A stretch of DNA of 64,000 nt from Chrysomallon squamiferum (lineage: Eukaryota > Animalia > Mollusca). Positions 6,910-63,903 of the stretch are shown here, one piece after another. Below the pieces are notes generated by a model. It saw nothing but the letters and a program-made list of their open reading frames with translations, had not been told where the DNA came from and made no database searches. Both the position numbers and the translations under genes were made by a program. Numbering within the stretch: the first letter of the stretch is position 1; the number at the start of each line of letters is the position of its first letter. The stretch is from NCBI GenBank assembly GCA_012295275.1, contig CM022676.1, positions 12,276,001 to 12,340,000 on the forward strand, read 5' to 3'.

Positions 6910-7833
6910 GCAAGGCAAAGTTCATTATGGTGGCTGACAGAGCTTTCAGATGACATCCTTACAATATTACATGTAGATTCGAAAGTGGCAGTATAAATAC
7001 TACTTTAGACTTCAATCTTCCTGAATGAGCAAATATTATTCGATGTGGCCCGACGTTTGATGTTAATACCTGTTCAAAACTGATACCTGGTTAATCAGTT
7101 GATGCATCAACTGCAACAACATACACAATATCTGCTGATCCCTTCAATCCTGATACTGATGAGGGAATCTGGATATGTGCTGATGCAGATCCTAGTTCAG
7201 TGAAAGGCAAAGCAAACGTTACATCATCAGGTGAGTTTCTTCAACTGCATCTTTCAACTTATTACCATCGAAACATGGCACTAAAACTTAAAGTGCACAC
7301 ATTTATTATTACAATAAGCTGTTTACCACCTGTCTGTGAATTTCTGTGTTTTCAGCTGTGTTTTCAGTTGTTAGTAATGAACTGCCACTGATAAAGAACA
7401 ACAGTCAGTCCTTAGATGTGTCAGTTGTTGGAGTCTGTACATACCAAGCAGCTCAGTGTACTTGGACTTACACAGTTGGTACATTTTGGTGAATTGATTG
7501 TAGGCTGTACAATACTAAATAATGATATTTAATACAAAATATGTTTGTTGAGAGTTCAGGAGAGATTTATAAACAAATCTAAAGAGTTTACATAATTTGA
7601 CTAGTACTTGTAGATTATTTTTTTAAATTAAAATTATTCTTTATAAAATCTGATTGATATAATATGTTTATGGTTTAATGTTTCTACTCTTTTTTTATTA
7701 CATTTTTTTTCTTCATAATATTATTATTTCCTTTTAATATTTAATTTAGCCAAAAATGAGTATTCTTTGTAGGTGGGTCGAATAGGCCATACCTAAATAG
7801 CTAACTAACCTTTACACTGAGGATCTATATTGT
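6910..7833 (+). pseudogene. G2: two-domain Ig family pseudogene
   Basis: Ig exon 6910-7230 (YNITCRF...IRCGPTFDVNTC...DEGIWIC) has three in-frame stops (TGA, TGA, TAA). Domain-2 exon A 7356-7474 is open (AVFSVVSNELPL...GVCTYQAAQCTWTYT). Exon B from 7750 has stops and is cut at ~7833. No leader exon found. Confidence 0.88.
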
Positions 7834-8544: not shown

Positions 8545-11107
8545 ATGGGTGTACAGATAAACTGCGTTTTCATCCTTTCTGTGTTTGTCATTTTGCTGAC
8601 AACTTCTGAAGGTAATGTAATTACTGGCATTAAACATTTCTAAACCTTATTGAAAATAAAATTAATTTCATAACAAAATGTATGAGTGATAGTTAATTAT
8701 TATTAAAGTAACAAAATACAATCATTTGCAGACTAGGACTATTTAAGATATATAAAGTACAATTTTTAAACAACATCAAGTGTTTTATAAAGGAAATAAT
8801 GACATTTGGCTAAAATATGTCACTTGGAAATCTGCACTCAAATATTCTAGAGTTATACTCAGAAAATTCTATACTGGGTCAGAGGCAAATCTCTCTCTAA
8901 TTGAGTAAAAGACAGCCACGGAAGAATCCTTCAGCGTGATTCACTTCATCATCAACCACAGCAAGCCTTACAGGATAGAGAGATGATAAGAAAAGCATTT
9001 GTTGAAGCAGCTGACTCATTGTTTCAGGAGAAACCGGAAATATTCTTTTCAATCATAGCTCTCGAACTATCAAGAAGCACAGTTACATGATAAATACATG
9101 CAGACACAGTCTTTTTGATTTCATTTATTAATATCTAGCTCCAATTCACAAAATTGCAAAAGACTTTCAAAGTCTATTGGATTTGTTAAACATTTGCTTT
9201 CACATTTGATTGGCATGGTCACCAAGGAAACCTTTCTAAACTTAAACAAAACACGTAAGTGGATACAGCTACAGCATTCGTGGTTTCAGTGTTACACAAA
9301 GAATTTCCATAACAACAACAAAAACAAATTTTAATTGTTTTTTTATTTTACACAGGCGTAACACAAATGAAACTTACAGCTGGAAAAGCTTTCAATAAAC
9401 GTCCTTTCAGCCTCACCTGTGAAGTAATAAGTGGCTCAGTGAGTGGTGCTCTAGAGTACACCCGTCCCGTAGGGGGGATCGTTGTCCAGTGTGATAACTC
9501 ATTTAACATCAGCAACTGTGATATCCAAATCCCGGGATATTCTGTTATTGCATCCACCAGTAACACATACACATTATCTGTTGCGCGCTTCAGTCCAGAA
9601 AATGATGAAGGAACTTGGACATGTACCGATTCAGCTGCTGATACGATTACTGCGAAATTAAATGTTACATTGTCAGGTCAGTTTAGGCATTGTTGTCTTT
9701 CGTAGTTTGTTATCATTCACATAATGCATTATAGCAGAAGATATATATATATATATATTATTTATTTATTATTGTTTTGGATGCTCACTGCTTTTATGTT
9801 GTAAATGTACTAAATTAATGTTACTGAACACTTTTAAACTACATTTTTCATTTCTAGGTAGATGCTGGGTTTAGTGGTATATAATGTGCACCTGTAACTG
9901 TGTGAAAGAATTGTCCATAGATAAATCTTTATATCAATTACGTACAAAACATTTGAATGCTCCCATTTTATCCATTACAATTTTATCCATTACGATTGGT
10001 TTTTCTTTATAATGCTTGTAATTTCTAAAGCTCCCAATTTCAAATAGTGTAAAGATATGTACTGTATATAATATATTTTAATTATTACAAAACAATCCAA
10101 TACTTTCTTTCTTTAGAAGCCACTCAAATGAGTAGCAGTGTATTGACACTTTCCCGCATACCAATCCTTTTCAAGCGATGTAGCACTTAGATCAGCGGAC
10201 AGCATTTCTGAAAATTATTATTCCACTGCCAAAGTGGACAGTCATACTAATTTGGATTTGTGTTCTGTTCCCTGTAATCTTTGACTTAAATAACCTGCTA
10301 GGCTCCTTAATGGTTTTTACTAATAGCTTTAGTGAGTTTAGGTCCAAAACGGATGAACATGTTTTATTCCAAACCTTATCTAAGTTAAATACACTTCAGT
10401 ATGAATATTCATACGTAGTGGACCAACCAAAAATCAGTTTCGAGAAGTCTATGAAACTCGACAAAATATTTCCTTACAAATAAATCTCTATTTATGTTTC
10501 TCAGTCACATGCAGTATAGAGATTAATTGTTTTGTAAATAAGAAATTTGAGATGTTTCAACAAATTTAAAGACATAGTTTTCTATTTTTGAGTCAGAAGC
10601 AGTATATAGACTGATATCATTAAAAATCAGATAATTAATGTCACAGAGTAGAGAAATTTGTGATTTTCTAAATTAATTTTTAAGCAAATTAATTTTCGTA
10701 TATTTTTTGTATATTTTAGAAGCAGCATTAACAAGCGGAAGTGATATTGAATCTTTGCCTGTATTTTTCTTATAATCACGTAATATTTTATTTATTTTTA
10801 TTTTTGTTTTATTTTTTGTTGATGAATTTAGCATTGCTTTTGTGTTGTTTTATATCTGTGTTTGAATACATAAACTGATTTAAATAAATACATTAATGAA
10901 TATATATTATTGTGTTTGTGTATATATTATATATGTGTGTGTTTGTAAGGTTCTAGCTGACCTATCTCTGTCTTTGTTTATGTCTGTCAAAGATCGTCGT
11001 GTTTTTCTATTCTTAATTGTACTTGATAGTTTCAGCTGCTGACTTTATTTCTTATTTTATCTTTCTTCAGATTTATCAACTTTTTAGTAATGACTGGTTT
11101 AATGTAG
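8545..11107 (+). CDS. G3: single-Ig surface protein; stalk exon has a -1 frameshift as assembled
   Basis: Exons: 8545-8611 MGVQINCVFILSVFVILLTTSEG; 9356-9676 Ig; 10720 (or 10726)-10779 ...LTSGSDIESLPVFFL* (TAA 10773-10775, one T short relative to paralogues); 11071-11107 FINFLVMTGLM* intact. Confidence 0.8.
8907..9090 (+). mobile_element. hAT (SPIN/GTF2IRD2-like) transposase fragment in G3 intron 1
   Basis: Translates, with frameshifts, to KTATEESFSVIHFIINHSKPY...IRKAFVEAADSLFQEKPEI...LELSRSTVT*; longer copy at 52049-52597. Confidence 0.7.
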
Positions 11108-12600: not shown

Positions 12601-15600
12601 CCTGAACACAAATTCGAGAGTAGATAAAATAGGAAAAAAATCTCAATTAGAAGATTCCTTACATGAATATAAGATGAAACATATCTGATGATAAAGAATC
12701 ACTTCCACTTATTCCTTCTAAAATACAGAAAATATAGAGAAATATAATAATCTTTAATTTATTGAAATAATAATTTTACAAAAACACAAATTCTTTCATC
12801 TATGACATTAATTATATGAATCCATAAAGTTATTAATTTATATACAGCTTATGACTCAAACATAAACAGAAATTTCTCTTCAGTAAAATATAGGCATGTG
12901 GAAAATGCTTATTCGTTTTTATTAAGCGTATGAATATTTATACTGCAGTGGAAATAAGATATAATTTACATAACTGAGCACTTATAAATAAATATTGTCA
13001 AAATCACAGTACAAAGTTACAATCTCTATTCACACCACACTAGAACCCAAAACAAACGTAAATTATTGTGGTCAGGATCTACTACAGCAAGTTTCGCAGC
13101 TTTATCCTAAAATGCAATTGCAAACATATCTAGATTATTAATGGATGCAAAAATAGTAAATATTTTGCAGGTCCTAAATCTCATTGAAAAAAAAAAAAAA
13201 AAAAAGAAGCTCTATTTATGTTTTACAAAATACTGCACTTGAAAACCAAAAAAAACATCTTTCAGACTTCAGAGGTCTGCTAAAACGTGGAGTTTACAAA
13301 AACATAAATATGCCTGGAATCATGTTGAATGTCTGAATTATCAAACTGTGTGCGAAATAGCTTGAACTTGCACAGTTTAATGGTTAAGCTCATTTTGTGG
13401 GCTCTAGTTGACATGACAAAACAGCACTTCCACCAGTATAGGAAGTTGGTAATGTCATCTTTAAAAATATTGTAAAAAGCTGCCATACAACAATAAAATT
13501 ACTTATTTTCCAGAAAACAAATCTAAATCAATATGACTGTCCACTTTAGTAGTGGAATAATAATTTCAGAAACTGCTGTCTGCGTCAACGTTAAGAAGGT
13601 GTCTGCTGATCTAAGGGACATTGAAAAATAATCGGGATCCATATTAATAGCTGCACATAATGATTCAAAGATTTGTTTATAGAACACATTCAACATTTTA
13701 AAAGAGACAACATTTCTACTGCACTTGCTATTTAACACTTAGGCAAAGGATCTGCCTGGGAGTGAAATATGCAGTTTAAATATATACATTAACATTAACC
13801 GACTGCATTTACTATATAAATAGTGTGAACATCCTTAGAAAATAAGAAATTATTTTTTTCTGTAAAACTTTATGTAAATCGTAACAGAAACTATGAAAGG
13901 CAAAACTGACCTGAAAAAGTAACATTTACTGAGCCTTTAATTGTATCAGCAACTAAATCACTACATTGCCAAATTCCCTCATCACGTTCGGGATTTAAGC
14001 TCTGAACAGATAGTGTGTATGTTTTATTGGTGGATGCAATAACTGAATATCCTGGGATGAGTGTGTCACAGCTGCTGATATCAAATGATTTACCACACTG
14101 GACAACAACGTATAGTTCAGGACTGTTAAAGCGTAAAAGACCTCTCACTGAGCCACTTATTATCTCACAGGTGAGGTTGAGAGGACGTTTTCTGAAAGCT
14201 TTTCCAGCTGTAAGATTCATTTGTGTTACACCTGTAACAAATAAAAAACAACTAAAATTTGTTTTATTGTTATAATAAAAACACTTTGTGCAACATTTAA
14301 ACCACGGTTACTGTAGCTGTATGTACTTGTGTGTTTTTGTTAAATTTTGTAAGTGTTCCTTAACGTTCCTGATAAGTGACATTAAGCGTATGAATATTTA
14401 TATTGGAGTGGAAATTAACATATAATTTACGTAACTGAGCACTTATAGATAAATATTGTCAAAATCACAGTACAAATTTACAATCTTTATTCACATCCAC
14501 ACACTATAACCCAAAACGAACGTAAATTATTGTGGTCAGGATCTCCTATAGCAAGTTTCGCAGCTTTATCCTAAAATGCAATTGCAAACATATCAAGTTT
14601 ATTAATGGATGCAAAAATAGTAAATATTTTGCAGGTCCTAAATCTCATTAAAAAAAAAAAAAAAAAAAGCTATATTTATGTTTTACAAAATACTGCACTT
14701 GAAAACCAAATAAACCACCTTTCAGACTTCAGAGGTCTGCTAAAACGTGGAGTTTACAAAACATAAATATGCCTGGAATCATGTTGAATGTCTGAATTAT
14801 CAAACTGTTTGCGAAATAGCTTGAACTCGCACAGTTTAATGGTTAAGCTCATGGTTACTGCATTTTGTGGGCTCTAGTTGACATGACAAAACAGCACTTC
14901 CACCAGTATAGGAAATTGGTAATGCCATCTTTAAAAATATTGTAAAAAGCTGCCATACAACAATAAAATTACTTATTTTCCAGAAAACAAATCCAAATCA
15001 ATATGACTGTCCACTTTAGTAGTGGAATAATAATTTCAGAAAGTGCTGTCTGCCTCAAGGTTAAGAAGGTGTCTCCTGATCTAAGGGACTTTGAAAAATA
15101 ATCGGGATTCATATTAATAGCTGCACATAATGATTCAAAGATTTGTGTTAGAGAACTCGTTCAAAATTTTAAAAGAGACAACATTTCTACTGCACTTGCT
15201 ATTTAACACTTAGGCAAAGGATCTGCCTGGGAGTGAAATATGCAGTTTAAAAGTATACATTAACATTAACCGACTGCATTTACTATATAAATGGTGTGAA
15301 CATCCTTAGAAAATAAGAAATTATTTTTTGCTGTAAAACTTTATGTAAATCGTAACAGAAACTATGAAAGGCAAAACTGACCTGATAACGTAACATTTAC
15401 TGAGCCTTTAATTGTATTAGGAACTGAATCACTACATTCCCAAATTCCTTCATCATGTTCGGGATTGAAGCTCTGAACAGATAGTGTGTATGTTTTATTG
15501 GTGGACGCAATAACTGAATATCCTGGGATGATTGTGTCACAGCTGCTGATATCAAATGATTTACCACACTGGACAACAACGTATAGTTCAGGACTGTTAA

Positions 15601-16078
15601 AGAGTAAAAGGACCTCTCACTGAGCCACTTATTATCTCACAGGTGAGGTTGAGAGGATGTTTTCTTAAAGCTTTTCCAGCTGTAAGTTTCATTTGTGTTG
15701 CACCTGTAACAAATAAAAAAGAACTAAAATTTGTTTTATTGTTATAATAAAAACAGTTGGTGCAACACTTAAACCACGAATACTGTAGCTGTATGTACTT
15801 GTGTCTTTTTGTCAAATTTTTGTAAGTTTTCCTTAATGTTCCTGATAAGTGAGATGTACTGACTTCCTTTTCTTGTAGGTGATTCACCATTTTGTTGTCC
15901 AGTTAAAAATAACAACAATAATAGTAAATGAAAAATTATTTTAAAAATAAAATGAGTAATAGTTTCGTATTGTATTATTTCTAAATTCATTTTCTAATTT
16001 AAATATATTACCTTCAGCAAATATCAGTAAAATGATAAAAAGATGAAAGAAGAAGATCCAATTCAATTGTAAAGCCAT
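12284..16078 (-). CDS. G4: GPI-type Ig protein with two tandem Ig exons (upstream one frameshifted)
   Basis: Exons (minus): 16012-16078 MALQLNWIFFFHLFIILLIFAEG; 15382-15703 Ig-a (322 nt, +1 nt near 15608, TAA at 15597); 13911-14231 Ig-b (321 nt, intact); 12663-12717 EGISGSDSLSSDMFHLIFM; 12284-12320 FINTLVITDLL*. Skipping Ig-a gives a ~159 aa protein. Confidence 0.85.
12921..15852. repeat. Intragenic tandem duplication, ~1.47 kb unit containing the Ig exon
   Basis: Units 12921-14379 and 14381-15852; junction cctgataagtga-c-attaagcgtatg at 14380. Confidence 0.93.
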
Positions 16079-24328: not shown

Positions 24329-26561
24329 CTACAGCAAACCAGTGATCACTAAAGTGTTGAAGAACCTGAAGAAAAATAAAATAATAGAAGATGAATTGAA
24401 ACTCTCAAGTAGAAATAGTAACAGACATCAGAGAAATGGACAGAGAGAGAGAGAGAGAAAGAGAGATACATTTGATGGTTAGATGTATTTGTGTGTGTGT
24501 GTGTGTGTGTGTGTGTGGAGAGAAAGACAGAGAGAATGAATACAAATTAACAATAAATAAAACATTCAATAAAAATTGAACAATTAGAAGACTACTTACA
24601 AAATTAATAGATAAAACATATCCAAAGTTTCACAATTACTTCCACTTGTTTTTTTCTCTGAAATATACAAAAATGTACACAGGATTAAACCAGTGTTAAT
24701 GTGTATCTTCAGTATTTTCTCTTTCTAATCATATTTCTAAGATGTTATACACAGGATTAAACCAGTGTTAATGTGTATCTTCAGTATATTCTCTTTCTAA
24801 TCATATTTCTAAGATGTGTTTGGTCAAGAATATGCAGAACATTATTTTCATACATGCTCTATTTAAAGTTCAGGCTAATGAGGAGAAATAAAAACTTTTA
24901 GAAGAATGTTTCATGTTATTATTTTTTATATTCTTTTATTTTTTATTTATTTTTTTTCTTCCTTTTTTTAAATTTTTTTTCGTCCTTTTTTTTTTTTTTT
25001 TTTTTTTTTTTGTGCTATTAAAAATCATTTGGAAGAATGAATTGCTAATGAATACACATTCTCCAATACAGAACAAATTTATAAAAATTTTGGATCACTG
25101 TTTTCAGAGTTTATTGAGACCGATGACTGCTCTGTGAAATTAGTTTGTTAGTATGCATTATTCAGTATGCATCTTCATAAATCAAATAAATCAATATTAT
25201 TCAGATATATCACTCATTAGTGAATAAACACTGATGATGTCGTTAGACAAATTCTGCTGTTATATGCAAAACCAATAAGGTAAAAATTACTAATGTGTAA
25301 AGGAATTTAGTAACGAACAAGTAAGAGGTCTGAACAGGCTGAAATATAAGAAATACAATGGGTTTTCAGTAAGATATGATATTATTTTTCACGTATGTCA
25401 ACATAAAAGAAAGAAAAAAGTACATTTATATATACAGAAATATATACAGAGCATATTTATCTGAGAAAGATACAAACCAACGTAAAGTGTAATATTTATT
25501 GAGCCAAGAACTGATCCAGAATCTCCATCACCACACTTCCATACTCCACAATCAGCACTAGGATCAAATTTTTCAACAGTTATTGTGTATGAATCTACTG
25601 TGGATCCAGTAGCTGAGTATCCAGGGTAAGACGATACGCATTTTGTGAAGTCGAAAGAATCATCACACTGAACAACACCAGATGAATCCGGTCGATTAAA
25701 CTCAAAAGGACCAACTATACCTCCACCCACTAACCGACAGGTGATGCTCAGAGGAAGTCCTTTGAAAGCATTTCCACTAGACATTGTTGTTGTTGTCCTA
25801 CCTATTTGTAATAAACAGAAACAGTCCCATTTGAAAATCAAAACCTAAACACTTTATAAATAAGGTAAACAAATTTTGATATTAATGAATGTGTGCAGTG
25901 GCCCAGGGGTAAATGAGTTGTGACATTAAATCTTAATTTTTTTTTAAAGATTATGTGTTGAATATATTTAAAAAAATTATACGATTGAAAATTAAAAGAT
26001 AGAATTAGTAATGAACAGTTAGGCCTCCTGCCCCAGATATTAAAAAAAGAAAAAAAAAAAGAAAGAAGTGTTCATTTATTTATTTATTTAAATTATTTTT
26101 TTATTTTCACACTGTCCAAGATATAGCCCTTTAATTTTATAGTCTTCTTGATAGTTTATTTCCAAATGTTATTCAGAAGCCTTCTCACAACTTCTAAATT
26201 ATGTGAGCCTTATCAAGCACCTGGTTGATAGACAACCTCTTTGGTAGTCCTATGATTTTTGAACAGAAAGGTTGAAAGCTTTTGGACATACTTTAATCAA
26301 ATGTCATTATTTCCTTAATAAAACACTTGATGCTTAAAACTTGTACACATTATTTACATATCTTAAACAGTCCTAGTAAGAAAATGAATTGATTTTGTTA
26401 TTTTAATAATTAACTATCACTTATACATTTTGTCTTGAAATTAATCTTATTTTCAAAAAGGTTTAGAAATGTTTAATGCCAGTAATTACATTACCTTCAG
26501 AAGTTGTCAGCAAAATGACAAACACAGAAAGGATGAAAACGCAGTTTATCTGTACACCCAT
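24329..26561 (-). CDS. G6: single-Ig GPI-type protein with two extra cysteines
   Basis: Exons (minus): 26495-26561 MGVQINCVFILSVFVILLTTSEG; 25478-25801 Ig (donor TTG/gtttgt is weak, end uncertain); 24600-24657 EKKTSGSNCETLDMFYLLIL; 24329-24365 FFNTLVITGLL*. Confidence 0.82.
24676..24817. repeat. 72 bp tandem duplication (2 copies) in G6 intron 2
   Basis: acacaggattaaaccagtg... begins at 24677 and 24749. Confidence 0.92.
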
Positions 26562-40927: not shown

Positions 40928-42908
40928 TGTTTTGATATGTGTCTGGTATATGGTCACCAAGGAAACCTTATAAATCTTAACAAAAGCACACAAGTACATA
41001 CAGCTACAGCATTCCTGGTTTTCGTGTTGTACAAAATATATTATTTATAACAATAAAACAAATTTTAGTTGTTTTTTATTTTACACAGGCGTAACACAAA
41101 TGAATCTTACAGCTGGAAAAGCTTTCAATAAACGTCCTTTCAGCCTCACCTGTGAAGTAATAAGTGGCTCAGTGAGTGGTGCTCTAGAGTACACCCGTCC
41201 CGTAGGGGGGGTCGTTGTCCAGTGTGATAACTCATTTGATATCAGCAGCTGTGATACCCAGATCCCAGGATATTCTGTTATTGCATCCACCAGTAACACA
41301 TACACACTAAATGTTGCCAGCTTGAATCCCAAAAATGATGAGGGAACTTGGACATGTACCGATTCAGCAGCTGATACGATTGCTGGCAAGTTAAATGTTA
41401 CAATATCAGGTCAGTTTTGTCTTTCATAGTTCCTGTTACCATTTACATAAAATAAATAAAAAGTTAATTTCTTAGTTTGTGTGGATGGTCACAGCATTTG
41501 TATTGTGTATGCAGTAGTTTAATTATACTGAACACTTCCATTCCCAGGTAGATCCTTGTCTAAATGTTAAAAATCATGTGCAGTAGAAATAATGTCTCTT
41601 TAAAGAGTTGAATGAGTTGTCTACAAAATATCTTTATATCAGTTACGTCCAGCCATTAATAAGAAAGTATTAAAAAATAATAATGTTGTTACAAAACATT
41701 TGAATGCTGCCATTCTATCCCTTTACAAATTGTGTTTTTTTTTTCTTCTTTTTTTATATGATGCTTGTAATTTCCATAGCTCTCCATTTTTATGTTTTGT
41801 ATGGTTTAAAGATAAGTACTGTATACAGATATATAATTAATTATATGAAAACCACTGTACAGTAGTACATCCCTATAACAGCCCCACCCCTGGATGAGCA
41901 CACGCCTACTGAACACTGACTCAGACAGCATTTTCTGAAATTATTATTCCACTGCTGAAGTGGACAGATATTGATTTGGATTTGTTTTCTCGAAAATAAA
42001 TAATTTTATTGTTGTGTGGCAGCTTTCTGAAATATTTTTAACGATGATATCACATGTTTCATGTACTGCTGACAGTACTGTTTTTGTCGTGTCAACTAGA
42101 CCCCACAAAATGCAGTCACCTTGAGCTGAACCATTAAACTGTGCGAGTTCAAGCTATTTCGCACACAGTTTGATAATTCAGACATTCAACATGATTCCAG
42201 GCATATTTATGTTTTGTAAACTCCACGTTTTAGCAGACCTCTGAAGTCTGAAAGATGGTTTATTTGGTTTTCAAGTGCAGTATTTTGTAAAACATAAATA
42301 TAGCTCTTTTTTTTATGAGATTTAGGACCTGCAAAACATTTACTATTTTTGCATCCTTCAATAAACTAGATATGTCTGCAATTGCATTTTAGGATAAAGC
42401 TTCGAAGCTTGCTGTGGTAGATCCTGACCACAATAATTTACGTTTGATTTGCGTTCTAGTGTGGTGGATGTGATTAAAGATTGTAAATTTATACTGTGAT
42501 TTTGAAAATATATATTTATAAGTGCTCAGTTATGTAAATCATATTGTTAATTTCCACTGCAGTATAAATATTCATACACTTAATAAAAACGAATAAGCAT
42601 TTTCCACATGCCTATAAGGCTGAAAAGAATATTTTATTCAAGAGAAATTTCTGTTTATGTTTGAGTCATAAGTTGTATATAAATTAATAACTTTATGATT
42701 TCATATAATTAATGTCATACTATAAAAGAATTTGTGTTTTTGTAAAATTATTATTTCAATAAATTAAAGATTATTATAGTTTTCTATATTTTCTGTATTT
42801 TAGAAGGAACAAGTGTATCTTCTGATATGTTTCATCTTATGTTCATGTAAGGAATCTTCTAATTGAGATTTTGTTTCTATTTTGTCTACTCTTGAATTTG
42901 TGTTCAGG

Positions 42909-43386: not shown

Positions 43387-44045
43387 TCTAATTGAGGTTA
43401 TTGTGTCTGCTAGATGTTAATTTTACAGTGATTACAAAACATGATTACAAAATACTAAAAGAGTGGATTGTGTTTGAAAGTGGAATGTAAAACTGTTGTA
43501 TATTTTTTATTATTTTATTTCTCAGCAGTGATAAAATATTTGTTATCTAGAGAATACCATGAATTATTGTTACTTGTATAATCATTATAGTGGGTTTTTT
43601 CTTTATAAATAATTTAGCAAATAATGTGTGTGTTTTTGTAAAATTGTGGTTAGAATAAGGAAAGTTTCGAAGCAGTAATATTAACATTAGAATTACCGAA
43701 AGGAATTGTCTGATTTGCGATATGTTTCTAGTAAACTTGACTGCATCACAGAAATAAAAACTTGTACATTTAGAAGCTAGAATTATGTTTCATCTTTGAA
43801 CACAGTACATGTTAATTAAATCATACATTAAGAGAGATGGGTGTAAATTTCAGGGCCATTTTAAGTCTATGTGCACTGGGTAGGTGTATTAAACTTTGTA
43901 AAATATTCAAATAAATTACTAAGAATGAAAAAGATAGCTATGAATCTAATAAACCAGAAATAAGTGTCTGCTTCAGAAGATGGATCTTTCTAGGGCAAGA
44001 AAATATTAAAATGTAAATGTGTATGTATGTATATATATTTTATTA

Positions 44046-44095
<50 letters not shown>

Positions 44096-44355
44096 TGAAT
44101 CAGAGTGTAGGAAAATGGGTGCCATACATTTGAGTCTTCTCGGCAGCAGGGATGCAGTTTGTGAGATCATGATTGTATTGCATCCTCCTGTGCTAACACA
44201 TTCACGAATATTGTCTATATATATATATATTCAAAGATACATATCTATATAAAAACATACACAGACAAAAGATACATGGTATTACCTAATTATATACTTC
44301 TGTACATAACCATGCATAAAAGAACAAAAAGAAGACAGTTTATGAGATTACTGGC

Positions 44356-44409
44356 ATTATTATAAGATAAACATGGAAGAAGATACAGAATCACTTCTGC
44401 TTATATCTT
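44356..44409 (-). pseudogene. Orphan stalk exon of the family
   Basis: tttag/AA GAT ATA AGC AGA AGT GAT TCT GTA TCT TCT TCC ATG TTT ATC TTA TAA; acceptor kept, donor lost; copy at 53813-53866. Confidence 0.75.
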
Positions 44410-46202
44410 CTAAAATATACAAAAATGAAGAAAATCAGTAACCAGTTATATCCATTATATAAGGTTTTTTTTAAATATTTTATTGTTGCTTGTTTTTTAC
44501 TACAATAAATTAAAACAGTAATAATAGTGTTTTTGATGAAGATGATGCTCATGATAATTCTCACATTTAAAACAAATGAACCATCAAAAAATGTCCAGTG
44601 AATATTATGCTGGTGCTAAATAAAAATGGATCACATTAGACACAGCTTTCTGTGAATCTGACCCACCTTATTCCTATAGTAACTGTGTTGTATTTAACTC
44701 AGTTGTATTCCTTGCTTTCAAATGAAACCAAATAGCCACCTTTATTTTTTTCTGCTGCAGTACTGTTAAGCAAACATACAAACAGTTGTATTTAACCTCA
44801 GGCTTTTCTGTTCATTGGTTCACTAAATATCATTATAATAATACGTCGTAGACGACGATGTGAGTGAAACGTTCCGTTCACTTCATTAAAGAAACAAAGC
44901 ACAAATGTCAAAAATAATAGCTTTATTTGTTTTATTATTATTATTTCTTTTAAATATGAAATGAACTAATTAATGAAACAATAATAGAGAAAAGGTATTT
45001 TCTTGAAAACGTTTCTAAAACAGAAGAGAAGAGAAGATAGCAGGCAATTGGGAACATTGTTTTTTATTCATGACGGTGAAAATCAAGTTGTCTGCAATTT
45101 GTAAGAATCTATCTGTGAACTTTTTATTTTTATTTTTATTTTTTTTTATATATCATACTTCACAGACATGTAGACAGATACGTATATTTTAACTTTATTA
45201 TATTTGATGAAACGTTGTTTTTGGGGGAAATTATTTTTTTATATATGTAAAATGAACTTCACATTTACGATTCAGATTTTCAAAAGCAGATTGTGTGCTC
45301 TTCAGTTGATAGCATTAATAAGATTATAAAACAAGACTGCAGACGACATGGACTATATTTTCTTTCTTAACATGCTGCAGACAGATTTCATGACGTCATC
45401 ACTTACATTACGTAAAATTTATAAATTTTTTGTCTTTTCTTGTTTCTTTCTTTACATTCACATGCAAAATTTTATACACTCACTTTTATATATCATAGCA
45501 AATATAATCAGTTAAAAATCGATCAAAGGGAATAACTATAAAGAAGACATGTAACACAATAGCTGAAATTTGAAACACATACATCGATCAGACAGATTAA
45601 AACATTTCACACTTTACAAAAACATTTCTATAATTTTATGACGTTGTGGACATTTCAAAATCCACAAAAGTTTAATAACATTTTCAAAAAGGAAATATAG
45701 CACTAAGCAATTTGAAATTCAACAAGTTATTGCGTAAATAATAATAATAATTAAACTCTATTATATATGTAAATAAATAAATAAATAAATACTAGTAAGT
45801 GAATAAGTAAGTAAGTAATAATAATAATAATAATAACTGATGATGATGGTGATGATATCGTCTGCAATAGTTCCCGTCAAAGAAAAGAAGTTGTATATGA
45901 ACTGGAAACTAGGAAGTATATTTGTGTTGATAAAAAGTCCGAAACAAATGTAATCAATGCTTCAAGGGGGATAATTCTGTTCTGACACTGATACAAATAC
46001 AATTATAAGACCGTCAGACATACTAGAAAAGTAAACAGTGAAACTCGTTAAAAAAACACGCACAATAATAATAATAATAATAATAATAATAAGCATGAGT
46101 AGTACAAAATAAAGACAGAAACAAGACTACAGTTTAGTTTGATGTCAGTGTTTGATACATCTCATATCTCCGTGTTTGTCTACCTGTCACGATTATGTAG
46201 AT

Positions 46203-50387
<4,185 letters not shown>

Positions 50388-50526
50388 TGAAATTAAATCT
50401 ATATCAAGAACGAAGTACCAAATCTGAAAAACAAAAAGAAGAAGAAGAAAAAGGATATTATTTTTATAATAACCAATAAAAATATTTGTTTTGTTTTAAC
50501 AACAATTATCGTACAATGCATTTGTT

Positions 50527-50527
<1 letters not shown>

Positions 50528-50588
<61 letters not shown>

Positions 50589-50638
50589 TAATAATAATAA
50601 TAATAAAAATAATAATAATAATGTCAGTTATTGCGCCG

Positions 50639-51132: not shown

Positions 51133-53280
51133 ATGGGTGTACAGATAAACTGCGTTTTCATCCTTTCTGTGTTTGTCATTTTGCTGACAACTTCTGAAGG
51201 TAATGTAATTACTGGCATTAAACATTTCTAAACCTTATTGAAAATAAAATTAATTTCATAACAAAATGTATGAGTGATAGTTAATTATTATTAAAGTAAT
51301 AAAATACAATCATTTGCAGACTAGGACTATTTAAGATATATAAAGCATGAGTACAATTTTTAAACAACATCAAGTGTTTTATAAAGGAAATAATGACATT
51401 TGGCTAAAATATGTCACTTGGAAATCTGCACTCAAATATTCTAGAGTTATACTCAGAAAATTCTATACTGGGTCAGAGCCAAATCTCTCTCTAATTGAGT
51501 ATATGTACTAAAAGTGGCTCAGGATTGAATATTCAAACAGCAGAAAAATCATCTAAAACATGACAACTTACAGCTTCCTTCCTCTTTGAAATTATCGAAA
51601 ACGGCAGCTTGCATATTCTAGAGGATGTGATTGTTGTACCAATACTATTTTTGAATACAGACTATAGCAATAGGTGGAACTTGTAAACTATGCACAAAAA
51701 GATGTTTATACTATTACTTTCCCATTATATTTACTTTATTTATTTATTTATTTTTATTTATTTGTTAATATTATTATTAATATTAATCAATATTTATCTC
51801 CCACAAAAACAAACACACCATGCCAGAACTAACTTAACAGATCTGTACGTATATAAAGTATGGTATATTAAATGTACAAGACAAATTCTGAGATCATATA
51901 ACGAAAACTGTTAATTTGTATTATTTTTTTTTTCTTTAATAGTATTTCCTTTCTTTCAGTGTCTTCATCTTTGGAGACAGTATTATTGTTATGTTTTTAT
52001 TAACGTTGTTTATTTATTTATTTATTTATTTTATTGATTTCTGAGATCTCATCTTTTCACAACCCGTGCGCGTAAACCGTTCGGGGTTCTGCGAAAACTC
52101 CAGCTAATTACCTTGTTACCCTTCCTTTTTATTTCTACTGTGAAAGGGTATAAAAATGAGTGAAAAAGTGGGATCAAATAAGAAACCAAAAACATATCAC
52201 TTGTATTGGGAATGGGAGCAGGAGTTTTTTTCCACAATGTTAAATTCGAAATAAGTTTGTGTGGTGTGTCAATTTAAGATCTTTTGGACTGTTCGGAAAG
52301 AAAGTACAACACTAACTACTCTCCGAAAAGTGAGCTAAGGAAGATAAATAGGAAGATACAAAAATTATAGCTGTCTGGACAACAGTCATTTTTCTCACAC
52401 CTGACTTCAAAATCGAAGACAGCCACCGAAGAATCCTTCAGCGTGATTCATTCCATCATCGACCACAGCAAGCCTTACAGGATAGAGAGATGATAAGAAA
52501 GGCATTTGTTGAAGTAGCTGACTCATTGTTTCAGGAGAAACCGGAAATATTATTTTCAATCATAGCTCTCGAACTATCAAGAAGCACAGTTACATGATAA
52601 ATACATGCAGACACAGTCTTTTTGATTTCATTTATTAAAATCTAGCTCCAATTCACAAAATTGCAAAAGACTTTCAAAGTCTATTGGATTTGTTAAACAT
52701 TTGCTTTCACATTTGATTGGCATGGTCACCAAGGAAACCTTTCTAAACTTAAACAAAACACGTAAGTGGATACAGCTACAGCATTCGTGGTTTCAGTGTT
52801 ACACAAAGAATTTCCATAACAACAACAAAAACAAATTTTAGTTGTTTTTTATTTTACACAGGCGTAACACAAATGAAACTTACAGCTGGAAAAGCTTTCA
52901 ATAAACGTCCTTTCAGCCTCACTTGTGAAGTTCAGTGAGAAGTAATCCCGTAGGGGGATCGTGGCTCAGTGAGTGGTGCTCTAGAGTACACCTGTTGCAA
53001 GTCCCCCAAACTTGTAAGGGGGATCGTTGTCCAGTGTGATAACTCATTTGATATCAGCAGCTGTGATAACAACAACAAAAAAAATTTAATTGTTTTTTTT
53101 TATTTTACCCAGATCCCAGGATATTCTGTTATTGCATCCACCAGTAACACATACACATTATCTGTTGCAAGCTTCGATCCCAAACTTGATGACGGAACTT
53201 GGACATGTACCGATTCAGCAGCTGCTACGATTGCTGGCAAACTTGTACATGTAGAAGCTAGAATTATGTTTCTTCTTTGA
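51133..53280 (+). pseudogene. G10: rearranged G3/G8-hybrid Ig gene with templated insertions and no tail exons
   Basis: Leader 51133-51199 identical to G3. Ig exon from 52862 has net +24, +15 and +39 nt inserts; TGA (52936) and TAG (52951) lie in the first. The exon is joined at ~53239 to sequence matching 43758, losing donor, stalk and last exon. Confidence 0.85.
52049..52597 (+). mobile_element. hAT (SPIN/GTF2IRD2-like) transposon 5' fragment
   Basis: From ATG 52156, with frameshifts: MSEKVGSNKKPKTYHLYWEWEQEFF..LNSK*VCVVCQ...SPKSELRK...LSGQQSFFSHLTSKSKTATEESF...AFVEVADSLF...LELSRSTVT*, matching the recalled N-terminus of this transposase family. Confidence 0.78.
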
Positions 53281-56200
53281 ACACATTAAATGTTAATTAA
53301 ATCATACATTAAGAGAGATGGGTGTAAATTTCAGGGCCATTTTAAGTCTATGTGCACTGGGTAAGTGTATTAAACTTTGTAAAATATTCAAATAAATTAC
53401 TAAGAATGAAAAAGATGGCTATGAATCTAATAAACCAGAAATAAGTGTCTGCTTCAGAAGATGGATCTTTCTAGGGCAAGAAAATAATAAAATGTAAATG
53501 TGTATGTATGTATATATATTTTATTATATTATTATTATTATTATTATTATTATGAATCAGAGTGTAGGAAAATGGGTGCCATACATTTGAGTCTTCTCGG
53601 CAGCAGGGATGCAGTTTGTGAGATCATGATTGTATTGCATCCTCCTGTCCTAACACATTCACGAATATTGTCTATATATATATATATTCAAAGATACATA
53701 TCTATATAAAAACATACACAGACAAAAGATACATGGTATTACCTAATTATATACTTCTGTACATAACCATGCATAAAAGAACAAAAAGAAGACAGTTTAT
53801 GAGATTACTGGCATTATTATAAGATAAACATGGAAGAAGATACAGAATCACTTCTGCTTATTTCTTCTAAAATATACAAAATTGAAGAAAATCAGTAACC
53901 AGTTATATCCATTATATAAGGGTTTTTTTAAATATTTTATTGTTGCTTGTTTTTTACTACAATAAATTAAAACAGTAATAATAGTGTTTTTGATGAAGAT
54001 GATGCTCATGATAATTCTCACATTTAAAACAAATGAACCATCAAAAAATGTCCAGTGAATATTATGCTGGTGCTAAATAAAAATGGATCACATTAGACAC
54101 AGCTTTCTGTGAATCTGACCCACCTTATTCCTATAGTAACTGTGTTGTATTTAACTCAGTTGTATTCCTTGCTTTCAAATGAAACCAAATAGCCACCTTT
54201 ATTTTTTTTTCTGCTGCAGTACTGTTAAGCAAACATACAAACAGTTGTATTTAACCTCAGGCTTTTCTGTTCATTGGTTCACTAAATATCATTATAATAA
54301 TACGTCGTAGACGACGATGTGAGTGAAACGTTCCGTTCACTTCATTAAAGAAACAAAGCACAAATGTAAAAAATAATAGCTTTATTTGTTTTATTATTAT
54401 TATTTCTTTTAAATATGAAATGAACTAATTAATGAAACAATAATAGAGAAAAAGGTATTTTCTTGAAAACGTTTCTAAAACAGAAGAGAAGAGAAGATAG
54501 CAGGCAATTGGGAACATTGTTTTTCTTCATGACGGTGAAAAATCAAGTTGTCTGCAATTTGTAAGAATCTATCTGTGAACTTTTTATTTTTATTTTTATT
54601 TTTTTTATATATCATACTTCACAGACATGTAGACAGATACGTATATTTTAACTTTATTATATTTGATAAAACGTTGTTTTTGGGGGAAATTATTTTTTTA
54701 TATATGTAAAATGAACTTCACATTTACGATTCAGATTTTCAAAAGCAGATTGTGTGCTCTTCAGTTGATAGCATTAATAAGATTATAAAACAAGACTGCA
54801 GACGACATGGACTATATTTTCTTTCTTAACATGCTGCAGACAGATTTCATGACGTCATCACTTACATTACGTAAAATTTATAAATTTTTTGTCTTTTCTT
54901 GTTTCTTTCTTTACATTCACATGCAAAATCTTATACAATCACTTTTATATATCATAGCAAATATAATCAGTTAAAAATCGTTCAAAGGGAATAACTATAA
55001 AGAAGACATGTAACACAATAGCTGAAATTTGAAACACATACATCGATCAGACAGATTAAAACATTTCACACTTTACAAAAACATTTCTATAATTTTATCA
55101 CGTTGTGGACATTTCAAAATCCACAAAAGTTTAATAACATTTTCAAAAAGGAAATATAGCACTAAGCAAATTGAAATTCAACAAGTTATTGCGTAAATAA
55201 TAATAATAATTAAACTCTATTATATATGTAAATAAATAAATAAATAAATACTAGTAAGTGAATAAGTAAGTAAGTAATAATAATAATAATAATAACTGAT
55301 GATGATGGTGATGATATCGTCTGCAATAGTTCCCGTCAAAGAAAAGAAGTTGTATATGAAACTGGAAACTAGGAAGTATATTTGTGTTGATAAAAAGCCC
55401 TAAACAAATGTAATCAATGCTTCAAGGGGGATAATTCTGTTCTGACACTGATACAAATACAATTATAAGACCGTCAGACATACTAGAAAAGTAAACGGTG
55501 AAACTCGTTAAAGAAACACGCACAATAATAATAATAATAATAATAATAAGCATGAGTAGTACAAAATAAAGACAGAAACAAGACTACAGTTTAGTTTGAT
55601 GTCAGTGTTTGATACATCTCATATCTCCGTGTTTGTCTACCTGTCACGATTATGTAGATCTAGAGCCAACCAGTGATGACAAAAATGTTGATAACCCTGA
55701 AAAAAAAAAAAAAAAAAAAAAAAAAAATAAAAAAAATAAAAAGGGCCTGAACTGAAACAAATAACAAGAAAATTATCCAAAGGAAAACATTTACAAAGAC
55801 ATAAACAGAAAATACGCAAAAACACGCAGACACGCTTACACAAAAACACAGATATATAGATACAGAGATAAATAGCTCAGTAGACAGAAACATATATAGA
55901 TACGTACATACATGTACAAAGTGCAAGTTTATAAACATATGTATGTTTGTGCGTGATTTATGTATGTGTAGGTGTGAGTTAATTGTGCGTAGATAGATAG
56001 ACAGAAGTGTAGATAAAATGAATACTAAACTGAACAGTAAAAGAACTAATGAAATAAAAATAAAGGGCACGAACAGAACGCTAAAATATATAATGAGAGA
56101 AAGCAGCGGAGATCTCTAGCTGGAACCACATAAACTGAGAGACACACAGTCATGCACAGGAACACAGATACGTTGATAGATACAAAGACACACGTACACA

Positions 56201-56863
56201 CAAATAGCAGTACATTGATCAATAGGTGAAAAGAAAGACAGATGATTCGATGGATGGATGGATGGAAGGATGGACAGGCATACGTAAATTTAGACCATGC
56301 TACACTGAAAAATAAAACAAGTAACAAAAAGAAAGCAGTTACAAGATTACTTACGTGATTATTATGTAAACCGCGAAAGAAGACAGAGATTCACTTGCGG
56401 ACGTCATAGCTGAAACAGACGTACTATAAATGTTTTAACCAGTTAGGCACAAAATTTTAAAACTGTCATATATACCATAATAAATTAAATTCACAAGTAA
56501 TAATGATGATAATGATGATGATGATGATGATGATATAAACGATGCTTATGATGGTGTTTGTGATGACGATGATCATCACGATTATGATAATAGTAATTCT
56601 TACATTTGAAATATAGATAAGGACTGGATTCAGGAAAAAGCGGTGCAGCAAGAGAAATGTGAGTAATTTTGAGTTTGAGCCTCAGCGTATATCCAATAAA
56701 TTTTTGAGTAGTGTAATACAATGAGCAGGTGGTCTCTACCTCCCCCGGCGGACACGGTTTTGTGTTAGTACTAAACCTGATTAGCTGTTTAGGCACAGGT
56801 TTATCTTCCTTGTCCTTCGGCTACAAAGAAGAAATAATTTCTGGTTAAATTAAATTAATTAAA

Positions 56864-56897
<34 letters not shown>

Positions 56898-59332
56898 AAT
56901 AATAATGATGATGATGATGATGATGATGATACTACTACTACTATTACTACTACTACTACTACTACTACTACTAATAATAATAATATTAAACGAGTAAACG
57001 TTAGAAACATTTGAATAAGAAAATGTAATCTCATTAGCATTAGTAAAAAAATCTTTAATTTATTGGTAAAATTTATTATGTTGTTAAATATAGACATAAA
57101 AATCTTAAATTTATAAACAGCGTGTTCTAAGAAAAAAAAAAATGAAACTGTAGAGCCTTCTACAAAGAAATGTTTAAATCTGATTCAGTTGTTTTTCTCT
57201 CACACAAATAAAAGCTAAAACAAAAACTTCTCAAACAAAAACTTTTATTTTTATCTATTTATTTATGTATTTGTTATGTTTCTTTACTTAACCTAAAGTG
57301 AAACTCAGAATCAGTTTTACAGTATCACTGTTTTACTAATAAAAGTATTCTATACGATTATTTCATATTATACAATCAGTTCACATAGACGCTAACTTCA
57401 TATGTCCAAAAGCATTCTGCCTCTTTATATGTACACCTTCCTATCACAGACACGTGTTTTATGTGTGGTTTATTGCTGAGCAATGGCAGGCCATTGAAAG
57501 CTACGGAAAACACATCTGAAAAGCAAGAATTCACGTAACGAGTTTAGCAAAGGCTGATTTAAATATCGTAAATGTTATATTAAACAAATATAAATACCAT
57601 TTTAGTATAAAGATAAACTATTCCAAAAATGAAAAAAGAACAATTAAAGTGGATTTCATCTGACTGGACATATCCGTACGTTTACTTTATTATGACGTAT
57701 TACATATATAATTAATAAGAAAACATCTGTATTCTATGGAAAATGCGAAAGATTCTGTGATAATCTTATGAATTAATTATATGTCTATAAATGTCATAAA
57801 ACATAAACTAAATAAAAGATAAACGTGTCCCACTTTCTTCCAAGCTGACCTACAAGAGGAATACAGTGATATGCTAGTCTGTGTGTGTTTGTGTATAATG
57901 TCACGTGTGTGGGTGTGTCTGTGTGTTCGTGTGTATGTAAACTGACCTGATGATTCAATCTTTAGTGTGCCTAGAACTGAATCAGGTTCGGAATCACCAC
58001 ATTTCCAAGTGCCTTCGTCGTTGTCCCGACTGAAGCTGTCAATAGAGAGTGTGTACGAATTCGAAGATGCCGCAGTAACTGAATAGCCAGACAGTAGTTG
58101 TAAGCACTTCTTGATGTCAAATGAGTCGTCACACTGAGCAACAACTGCTGCTCCTTCAGGGCGGTTGAAACCAAGAGCACCTGTTATTTCACCACTTACT
58201 AATTCACAGGTGATGGTGAAAGGATGTTCTCTGAAAGCTCTTTCGTTAGCTGATGTCAGTTTTGTTTCTAACTTACCTACGAGAATGAAAACAAAAAGTA
58301 AATAAATAAATAAAAAATAAAATATAACGTTTTATTATTGTTGTTAGATTTGCTAAATTATATGATTACTTGTATCACATGAAATAAGCAACAGTAAACA
58401 TATATAAACATATCAGAATTACATTTTCTTATCGTTTTTAGATAGTGTGACATAATCGAAACAAATCTATTTATAGATATATACGTAGACAGTACTGATC
58501 ACGTCTGTTCCGTTGTTTATCAATAATAAAGGAAGAAGAGCGCGCGCTTTTTGGGGTATATAAATTTCGTTTCATAATTGTGAAAAAACGATAAGAATAT
58601 GTAACTTTGAGTGTCAGCACTTTAAAAACAATCAATGACGAAAGAAGAAGGATGGCGCTTTTTGAACCATGTAAAGTATATATTTTGGGGGTGCAGAGAC
58701 TGAATTGCTGTATTGCTAGAGTAACTGCAACAGTGAACAGTCTGCCGTGTTCTTACGCTTTACCGTGGTACACGAGAGAAACAGCAAGAGTCACGTTACC
58801 TTCACATCTGACTGTCAAGAAAATCTACTCAAAACAAACAAACAACCCTCACCGTCATAATAATAAAGTTACATAAAAAATAGAAAAATAAAAAAATAAT
58901 AAAGAAATAAAGAAAGAAGAAGAAGAAAAAAAAATATATAGAAAAACATACTTAAAGACCTAAACAAAATAACAAAGAAAAAATAAATAATGATAATATT
59001 TGCATACTATTAATAGTCTTAATTGTTACATAGCTATTCATATTTTTGTTATTGTAATAGAAATAAAACATGGTTACCATGTTGATTCATTGTAACACTG
59101 TAAGGCAGTAACATACACAGCGTGTCATAAAAATACTGTATTAGTTAGTGTAGGCGCATTGTCTTTACTTATCTACAACGTTATTTTTATTTTGTTTCAA
59201 CATTCATAGCTAAGGTAATTAACCGTTATAGTTATCATGTAAAGTGTTTAAAAAAGTTAAAGCCAGTGTGAGATTCAAATCTTAGTTACTTTCACGTCAC
59301 GCTTAGCTAGGTTTACGTTTGTGTGTGTGTGC

Positions 59333-59423
<91 letters not shown>

Positions 59424-59896
59424 CGCGCGCGCGTGTGTGTTATTTTTCAGTTTATAATTATTTAATTTATAAACCTTCCTTGCTGCTAAACTAAATATCA
59501 CCAGTAGTCACATAATGATTATGTTCAGTAATGAAACTTAATAATCATTAATATTAAAAAGTATTCTTGTTACATATCATTGATCGTAAGTTCTAGATGT
59601 CATACAAATCTATAGCTTTCAGTAATACTAATAGAAATTATAAAGAAAAGTATTTTTCTGCTATATTATCCTGTTGTCAGCAATGTATTACCTTCACTGA
59701 ATGTAAATGAAGACAGACAGACAGCAAGCACGAATATGCATTTCAGTTGAAAATCCATTGAAATTAAATCTATATCAAGAACGAAGTACCAAATCTGAAA
59801 AACAAAAGAAGAAGAAGAAAAAGGATATTATTTTTATAATAACCAATAAAAATATTTGTTTTGTTTTAACAACAATTATCGTACAATGCATTTGTT

Positions 59897-59935
<39 letters not shown>
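53239..59935 (+). repeat. Near-identical direct duplication, copy A' (partner 43758-50560)
   Basis: See copy A; ORF track repeats (44019/53500, 47035/56491, 48599/57971). Confidence 0.95.
55660..59758 (-). CDS. G11: two-domain Ig GPI-type protein, recent duplicate of G9
   Basis: Exons (minus): 59692-59758, 57947-58276 (one extra Ala: EGAAVVAQC), 57397-57515, 56604-56820 (S>I, P>S versus G9), 56355-56409 (V>I), 55660-55696. Confidence 0.88.
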
Positions 59936-59937
<2 letters not shown>

Positions 59938-60078
59938 TAATAATAATAATAATAATAAAAATAATAATAATAATAAAATAATAATTTAAAAAAAAAGAGT
60001 TGAAATATCTCAAAGAAAACAAAGAAAACTGAAATATTAAAATAATTAATATTAACATATTAGGAGGGCCATACCATA

Positions 60079-62889: not shown

Positions 62890-63903
62890 ATATTAATGTA
62901 AGATGAGAATTTTAAGTAAATGTAATTATCACATACTTTTCAGACGCGTATTTCCTCAAAAAGTCAGGAAACGCAGTTGAGGTTGGATTATCTTTCACAC
63001 TCACGTGTCACACGCGTCGCAGAGTGGCAGGGATAGGCTGGACGCGCGGGACCTTGACCATGAATGTTCACCAAGGTCACGGGTCAAACTGCAGTGGATA
63101 TCTGCCAAGAAAATACAAGTTCAAATGTAACGAGGGAACTGTATTCACACTAACAATACCCAAAGTCTTTTTCAGCGAAGATGAAGTGAAATGGTTCTGT
63201 TCAGATCTAGATGGAAAACACAAAAGCAATGTCGTAGTTATACATGTCATGGGCGCTTGTAGGTTTTGCTCGTAAACTATAAATATAATGATAATGAGAG
63301 CCGTGTGTATGTAACGGTGTGTTTAACACATTCAGACAAATGTTCTTGCGTACAAAACATAAAGAAATAACTAAAAGTTTCTAACGTGTGTAAAATGTAC
63401 AATTCTATTACCTCTCACTTGTAGACTAATTTTTACAGAATAGTTAACTAATTTGTTTTTCTTCCTTTTTATTGTTGTTGTAGTTATTTTTATGACAATC
63501 CCATTGAGAAACTCCCAATGTAACAGAGCTGTAACTAGATAATATCCCATAATACTTTAGTTTTGTCTCGACTTTCGAACAGAATCCCAAGTTTCGACTG
63601 CCAAACGATACGTTCCAATGTTAAAAGGTCTCGTTACGTCAGCACACAAAACACAAATACACAAAAGTATGTTTATCAATTATGAAACAGCTAACTGTAA
63701 GGAATAACCATTGATCATTTTCCTGTAATTAGCAAAAAAAATTGGTCATTAATAGATAAACTTGAATTGAGTTTTGATATCGTGGATTTAACACTGAAAG
63801 ATGTTTAAAAGATTTTCACAGTTTTCTAAATTTTGTATTGTTTAGCTATGGCGAAGAGTGGAAGCGAGTCTCTATCTTCAGCTACGTTTTGTCTGATAAC
63901 CGT
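62428..63903 (+). CDS. G12: divergent single-Ig member (last exon expected beyond the window)
   Basis: Exons: 62428-62485 MELEARHILVCAVLFTATS; 62944-63258 NAYFLKKSGNAVEVGLSFTLTCHTRRRVAGIGWTRG...C-x11-C...FTLTIPKVFFSEDEVKWFCSD...; 63846-63903 SMAKSGSESLSSATFCLITV/gtaagt, homologous to the family stalk exon. Confidence 0.82.
62713..62833 (+). mobile_element. Tigger/pogo-like DNA transposon terminus in G12 intron 1
   Basis: ...ggaacgaattaaactcataagtcaaggtaccacgg-TA resembles recalled Tigger/MER44-type ends; only one end seen. Confidence 0.45.

What the first reader, a model, noticed from the sequence alone, without database searches (positions are those of the whole stretch)
52862..53280. G10 Ig exon has three frame-preserving insertions copied from nearby DNA, at predicted loop positions
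Seen versus G3/G8: insert 1 (~52932-52960, net +24) is a patchwork of tcagtga, gaagtaat and cccgtagggggatc from the same exon type. Insert 2 (~52993-53017, net +15) uses tgttgcaag and cccaaacttg found ~170 nt downstream. Insert 3 (~53068-53107, net +39) copies the upstream intron end (aacaacaacaaaaa...ttgttttttattttac, ~52818-52857) and creates a new ttttacccag acceptor. All are multiples of 3 (about 1 in 27 by chance) and follow the B-strand Cys, the C strand and the extra Cys pair; insert 1 contains two stops. Inference: template switching (Pol theta end joining, FoSTeS/MMBIR) or a copy-choice diversification process acting on the Ig exon. A local assembly or polishing artefact is equally possible.
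Basis: partly seen in the sequence, partly recalled or inferred. Interest (0 to 1): 0.8.

Follow-up and report, generated by a model that had tools for sequence, protein, structure and literature searches.

The report
Likely assembly smear in Ig pseudogene
A broken copy of an immunoglobulin-domain gene carries three short insertions copied from nearby DNA, and they are likely an error of the genome-assembly software, which would have blended reads with and without a small duplication, rather than a new way of diversifying immune genes.

Summary
The three insertions are in the window (net +24, +15, +39) and are built from direct copies of nearby exon and intron DNA. They sit in a copy already cut at 53240. 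Insert 1 adds two stops and the new acceptor is out of frame, so frame and loop placement carry no weight (1/27 post hoc; loops p about 0.16).

Contigs of public runs join straight across insert 3 in 4 of 8 runs, though these may be paralogues. One run bridges the neighbouring 53240 junction letter for letter.

The anatomy fits a consensus artefact. All donors are direct, offsets rise and then flip sign, 7 of 10 switch points share 0-1 base, and the copied pieces carry homopolymer errors. A linear-gap partial-order consensus of noisy reads, about a third carrying a 350-450 nt tandem duplication, gave such patchworks in 166 of 210 simulations (median net +85, span 106 nt). No such duplication was seen in the runs.

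Verdict: likely assembly artefact (0.75); private template-switch scar (0.22); targeted diversification (0.03). Interest low.

The parts
51133..51199 (+). Signal-peptide exon of G10 (phase 1)
   Evidence: Translation; an RNA-type contig of run X8 joins this exon type to the Ig exon start (table 7); copies at 8545 and 26561
51502..52414 (.). 913-nt segment in G10 intron 1, absent from G3
52816..52861 (+). G10's own acceptor-side intron end; second-best match to insert 3
52862..53240 (+). G10 Ig-fold exon, cut at 53240, no splice donor; as assembled it gives a 47-aa product
52932..52960 (+). Insert 1, net +24: two donor pieces (about +10 and +36 in insert-free coordinates) around a re-read of the site; stops at 52936 and 52951; one G short in the G-run
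52993..53013 (+). Insert 2, net +15: two collinear pieces of one downstream donor around 5 retained original bases
53066..53108 (+). Insert 3, net +39: copy of an acceptor-side intron end with three homopolymer-type length changes; 3-nt overlaps at both ends
53162..53188 (+). G10-specific donor stretch of insert 2; held letter for letter by contigs of X3 and X5
9309..9351 (+). G3 intron end, best match to insert 3 in the window
9356..9676 (+). G3 Ig exon, intact comparator
41089..41409 (+). G8 Ig exon, intact comparator; folded here
53239..59985 (+). Copy of 43758-50616 joined to the cut exon (88 substitutions, 27 indels); relative to G8 and its downstream DNA the junction is a deletion of about 2.37 kb
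   Evidence: junction bridged by an X2 contig

Best explanation
The three insertions are present in the assembled sequence of a truncated Ig-domain gene copy, and they are likely a consensus artefact rather than DNA of the animal. Inferred mechanism: the reads piled on this locus were a mixture, and a minority carried about 300-550 extra bases (exon 5' part plus an acceptor-side intron end, from a tandem duplication allele or a co-mapped paralogue). A consensus program with a linear gap cost can spread such a long insertion over about 100 bases of target by matching chance letters. Its heaviest path then keeps the normal exon plus a few fragments of the extra DNA, in order. Later short-read polishing would correct the flanks but not the unmappable patch. 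Shown: the anatomy, the truncation, and that such a consensus yields this anatomy in simulation. Inferred: that the assembly used noisy long reads with such a program, and that the longer reads existed.
For: (1) All five donor pieces are direct. Their offsets rise (about +10, +36, +117, +127) and then turn negative (about -210). In simulation 792 donors were direct and 13 inverted, offsets rose in 443 of 463 consecutive pairs, and 79 of 94 two-sign cases ran plus then minus. (2) Patchworks arose in 166 of 210 runs and 445 of 504 runs (looser criterion). Median net was +85 and median span 106 nt, against +78 and about 100 nt observed. One run gave +82 with donors of types 1a, 2b and the intron end in the observed order. 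With no duplicated reads, 48 of 48 runs were clean. (3) Overlaps at the ten switch points are 0,1,1,2,1,1,1,1,3,3; the simulated mode is 1 (386 of 1046; only 29 were 0). MM-BIR is described with 2-5 bp (PMC7407515, passages). (4) There are four homopolymer-type changes in about 55 copied bases, while flanks match run contigs with 0 differences over 52600-52844 and 53128-53500. (5) Contigs join across insert 3 in X1, X4, X6 and X8 (4 of 8 runs laid, sides 33-52 letters). The insert-free form continues at sites 1 and 2 in X5, X6 and X8. X2 bridges the G10-specific 53240 junction with 0 differences.
Against: No listed joint or loose end shows the junction of the required duplication (tables were cut, 19 and 10 loose ends not shown). 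The insert-free joints may come from G3 or G8, which share that sequence. The simulation uses my own simple program and error model and was set up to contain the duplication. Only 4 of 504 runs put an observed donor at an observed site. The length difference actually seen at this locus (2.37 kb) gave patchworks with mostly intronic donors spread over the whole stretch, a poor fit (22 of 377 and 22 of 172 runs were printed and read). The retained 32- and 51-nt pieces are nearly error-free, cleaner than most simulated consensuses (4-30 other errors per 660 nt in the printed examples). The assembly method is unknown, and no raw reads were served.
Confidence: 0.75

Rival explanations
1. A real, private allele: one error-prone repair event (synthesis-dependent repair or MM-BIR with repeated mis-priming, or polymerase theta end joining) rebuilt the exon from a G10/G3-like template. 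It picked up short nearby pieces and persisted because the copy was already dead.
For: Templated insertions of 2-35 bp with microhomology are a polymerase theta hallmark (PMC7454005, passages). MM-BIR makes multiple switches, and such scars accumulate in germlines (PMC7407515, passages). Nine of 10 switch points share at least one base, and insert 3 has 3-nt overlaps at both ends. The array is rearranging: a 2.37-kb deletion, a deletion of about 310 nt in the copy at 19900 and a 6.9-kb duplicate. The retained pieces are clean.
Against: Seven of 10 overlaps are 0-1 nt. It needs either three breaks within about 100 nt or one event with ten switches, all direct and in rising order. An old allele should be shared; a young one should not carry four homopolymer changes. 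The 53240 junction is found in another data set (X2), so it does not by itself tie the inserts to that rearrangement.
Confidence: 0.22
2. A targeted, somatic or germline copy-choice process inserts nearby DNA into loops of these Ig exons to diversify them.
For: Each site is net a multiple of three (1 in 27). All three sites fall between predicted strands. The family is tandem, spliced and diverse. Somatic diversification of snail Ig-bearing FREPs is reported (PMC12074976, passages).
Against: Two stops, an out-of-frame acceptor and a truncated exon leave nothing for selection on frame. Loops are 57 of 106 residues, so three loop hits have p about 0.16 on a weak model (pLDDT 55). No other of the 12 family exon copies found by tblastn shows such inserts. 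Letters between joints in 8 runs are paralogue-type only (table 5c), though contigs drop rare variants. FREP diversity is attributed to gene conversion and point mutation; the word 'insertion' does not occur in that review.
Confidence: 0.03

Closest known systems
Linear-gap partial-order consensus error on mixed haplotypes (Racon/spoa-type scoring recalled from memory and re-implemented here)
   Same: Direct, ordered fragments of nearby DNA interleaved with an intact target; mostly 1-nt overlaps; homopolymer errors; similar net size and span.
   Different: The required longer reads were not observed and the pipeline is unknown. Three searches for a printed description of this pattern (listings only, plus passages of PMC7568353) gave none.
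Polymerase theta end joining / SD-MMEJ templated insertions (PMC7454005, PMC7407515, PMC7615360; passages)
   Same: Short pieces (8-39 nt) copied from within about 250 nt, some with overlaps at entry and exit.
   Different: Three sites with almost no deletion, overlaps mostly 1 nt, no inverted piece, donors in strict order.
MM-BIR / FoSTeS (PMC7407515, passages)
   Same: Multiple switches near a rearrangement junction.
   Different: Described with 2-5 bp microhomology; 7 of 10 switches here have 0-1.
Biomphalaria FREP somatic diversification (PMC12074976, passages)
   Same: Snail Ig-domain gene family (the snail label comes from unchecked notes).
   Different: Gene conversion and point mutation in working genes; here insertions with stops in a truncated copy. 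No fibrinogen domain was looked for.
Templated insertions in human antibodies (LAIR1, VD/DJ inserts; PMC11200687, PMC7754338; search listings only)
   Same: Extra DNA placed inside an Ig-domain gene.
   Different: Those are expressed and arise in B-cell receptor loci, in one case through RAG; here the product is dead and no programmed break site is evident.

Membership tests
Linear-gap consensus artefact | Donor pieces direct and in rising order, sign flip at the duplication junction | tested here: met
Linear-gap consensus artefact | Switches at single shared letters | tested here: met
   Observed 0,1,1,2,1,1,1,1,3,3; simulated mode 1
Linear-gap consensus artefact | Reads of two lengths (300-550 nt duplication) at the locus | tested here: inconclusive
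   No such joint listed in 8 runs; tables cut; junction may lie outside the laid stretch
Linear-gap consensus artefact | Absent from single molecules of the sequenced animal | not testable with these tools
   Only contigs were served
Polymerase theta templated insertion | Insert copied from nearby DNA, 2-35 bp | tested here: met
   PMC7454005 passages (insert 3 is slightly longer)
Polymerase theta / MM-BIR | Microhomology of 2 nt or more at switches | tested here: not met
   3 of 10 switches; PMC7407515 gives 2-5 bp for MM-BIR
Polymerase theta templated insertion | Dependence on POLQ | not testable with these tools
   needs genetics
Somatic Ig diversification (FREP-like) | Variant encodes a working Ig protein | tested here: not met
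   47-aa product, stops at 52936 and 52951, no donor
Somatic Ig diversification (FREP-like) | Many variants per individual, soma over germline | not testable with these tools
   Contigs drop rare variants
Immunoglobulin superfamily, V-like domain (host exon) | Beta-sandwich with B-F cysteine pair | tested here: inconclusive
   C21 and C89 and a second pair C45/C54 invariant in 8 of 8 exons. Eight strands, pLDDT 55.5. CD8-alpha Z 6.5, rmsd 3.6, 92 aligned, tied with a non-Ig protease domain at Z 7.3. No Pfam hit for 4 of 4 exons.

The most novel reading that the evidence does not exclude
A snail Ig-domain gene array is diversified by a copy-choice process that pastes short nearby DNA pieces into Ig loops, and the assembly captured one failed product.
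Probability: 0.03. Interest if true: 0.85.

Novelty: not a real feature. Interest (0 to 1): 0.12.

Why it matters
If the best reading holds, the value is a warning. A consensus program can fake a convincing polymerase-theta-like scar, and the fake has a checkable signature: direct donors only, rising offsets with one sign flip, 1-nt overlaps and homopolymer errors. If real and private, it is an ordinary repair scar in a pseudogene. Only the unlikely third reading, targeted insertion into invertebrate Ig loops, would be important; one search for templated insertion + mollusc + immunoglobulin returned 0 papers.

Tried and rejected
Missing cover, not counted as evidence. Depth is 0 at 52941-53002 in X1, X2 and X4 and at 52936-52952 in X3, X6, X7 and X8. 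But 217 and 49 pieces were not shown, a filter drops records, and contigs lose rare variants.

Junction at 53240.

Subsequence test. The retained 32-nt piece is a perfect subsequence of the skipped donor stretch (2 of 300 mononucleotide shuffles). Better nulls gave 224 of 2000 and 1176 of 9780, and G3's version fails. In simulated artefacts the property held in only 71 of 249 against 655 of 3758 by chance, so it barely discriminates; dropped.

Other artefact models. A false duplication in the draft alone was always removed (6 of 6 runs; 48 of 48). The 2.37-kb long allele fits poorly. With half the reads duplicated, only 3 of 72 runs gave a short patchwork.

Other leads. The indel cluster at 47531-47756 is not locally templated. 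The homologue search found none among 225 candidates, longer proteins only. Pfam gave nothing for 4 of 4 exons. Earlier notes gave nothing near this place or for these words. PMC7568353 passages did not bear on consensus smearing. No supplements were opened.

Full report
Observation. Aligned to G3 and G8, the G10 exon (52862-53240) shows three insertion sites, net +24, +15 and +39. Exact-match mapping gives the pieces. Site 1 is an 8-nt donor from just downstream, a re-read of the site, and a 14-nt donor that is the original sequence of site 2. Site 2 is two collinear 10-mers of one G10-specific stretch (53162-53188) around five original bases. Site 3 is an acceptor-side intron end that matches G3's intron (score 72) better than G10's own (65). 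Among 32 non-simple extra segments in 22,516 aligned paralogue bases, no other cluster has this build.

Surroundings. The window is an AT-rich tandem array with 12 Ig-like exon copies by tblastn. RNA-type contigs show signal exon to Ig exon, Ig exon to short exon, and Ig to Ig splices for the family. A weak model of the G8 exon (pLDDT 55.5) has eight strands and resembles V-type Ig domains among middling hits. Unchecked notes on this genome call the animal a snail. G10 has a signal exon at 51133-51199 and a 913-nt extra intron segment. It is cut at 53240, where it joins a copy of 43758-50616; relative to G8 this is a deletion of about 2.37 kb. As assembled it encodes 47 aa, and the new acceptor gives 33 aa out of frame. 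Frame and loop position therefore cannot have been selected. Split at the retained pieces the steps are +12, +12, +7, +8, +39, and three loop hits have p about 0.16 (57 of 106 residues outside strands).

Public runs. Eleven runs were listed and 8 laid, all as contigs. Flanks match with no difference over 52600-52844 and 53128-53500. The G10-specific exon letters are held by X3 and X5, and X2 bridges the 53240 junction, so the truncated copy is real. Contigs join straight across insert 3 in X1, X4, X6 and X8, and the insert-free form continues at sites 1 and 2 in X5, X6 and X8. These forms may belong to G3 or G8. Whether the sequenced animal is among the runs is not known. The uncovered part is told under Tried and rejected.

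Mechanism. In insert-free coordinates the donor offsets are about +10, +36, +117, +127 and -210, all on the same strand. That is the order in which a molecule with a tandem duplication (exon 5' part, then back to the intron end) would be read. With a linear gap cost a long insertion can be spread over the target at no extra cost by matching chance letters. I wrote a partial-order consensus with such scoring (values recalled) and fed it noisy reads of the G8 region. With no duplicated reads, 48 of 48 runs were clean. With about 36% of reads duplicated by 350-450 nt, 166 of 210 runs gave two or more templated inserts, median net +85 over 106 nt. Donors were 792 direct to 13 inverted, offsets rose in 443 of 463 pairs, and 79 of 94 two-sign cases ran plus then minus. 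On a G10-like model 445 of 504 runs gave two or more inserts. One of them reproduced the observed donor series with +82, but only 4 hit an observed site with the observed donor. Overlaps at the ten real switch points are 0,1,1,2,1,1,1,1,3,3, against a simulated mode of 1. The copied pieces hold four homopolymer-type changes in about 55 bases, in contrast with the exact flanks.

Against this reading. The duplicated molecules were not seen. The 2.37-kb length difference that does exist fits poorly. A subsequence test that first looked strong proved weak. The retained pieces are cleaner than in most simulations, and the pipeline is unknown. The simulation shows sufficiency, not cause.

Rivals and known systems. 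Polymerase theta makes templated insertions of 2-35 bp with microhomology (PMC7454005, passages). MM-BIR switches at 2-5 bp, and such scars accumulate in germlines (PMC7407515, passages; PMC7615360, passages). G10 looks like these in piece size and distance but fails the microhomology feature at 7 of 10 switches, so it is not filed as a member. A private scar keeps 0.22. Snail FREPs diversify by gene conversion and point mutation (PMC12074976, passages); G10 fails the working-protein feature. Antibody insertions were seen in search listings only. Searches for a printed description of this artefact and for templated insertions in mollusc Ig genes (0 papers) found none; the library lacks most subscription papers, and no supplements were read.

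Verdict. The pattern is in the assembly and is probably not in the animal: artefact 0.75, one-off scar 0.22, targeted diversification 0.03. Interest 0.12.

Noticed in passing
window 53241-53280 (+): Without the inserts, the cut G10 exon would read on into a short hydrophobic tail and stop at 53278, giving a possibly secreted single-domain protein with a substitute last strand. No listed RNA-type contig bridged this junction.
   Followed up: partly
window 53163-53240, runs X4 and X5: G10-type exon letters continue past 53240 as an intact exon end, so an uncut G10-like gene or allele exists outside this window.
   Followed up: partly
window 15610 (-), exon 15365-15701: One extra base at a homopolymer breaks the frame of this Ig exon, yet an X8 contig shows its 3' end spliced to the next Ig exon; possibly a second consensus error.
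   Followed up: partly
window 19900 versus 6802-7113: The copy at 19900 lacks about 310 nt of intron end plus exon 5' part; the reciprocal would be a duplication of the kind the artefact model needs.
   Followed up: partly
window 43758-50616 and 53239-59985: 6.9-kb duplicate at about 1.3% substitutions whose far end lies in an AAT microsatellite; real duplication or uncollapsed haplotype not settled.
   Followed up: no
window 51502-52414: 913-nt segment absent from G3, without obvious terminal inverted repeats; not identified.
   Followed up: no
window 1546-58271, family exons: The family has no Pfam match and no longer homologue in one search, and has Tyr/Phe in place of the usual C-strand Trp (recalled Ig motif) plus an invariant second cysteine pair; an uncatalogued Ig-like family.
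   Followed up: partly
window 26511-26561 (-) and 63084-63269 (+): A third copy of the G3/G10 signal exon sits upstream of the divergent exon at 25485-25799, and a weak Ig-like tblastn hit (E 0.027) lies near the window end.
   Followed up: no
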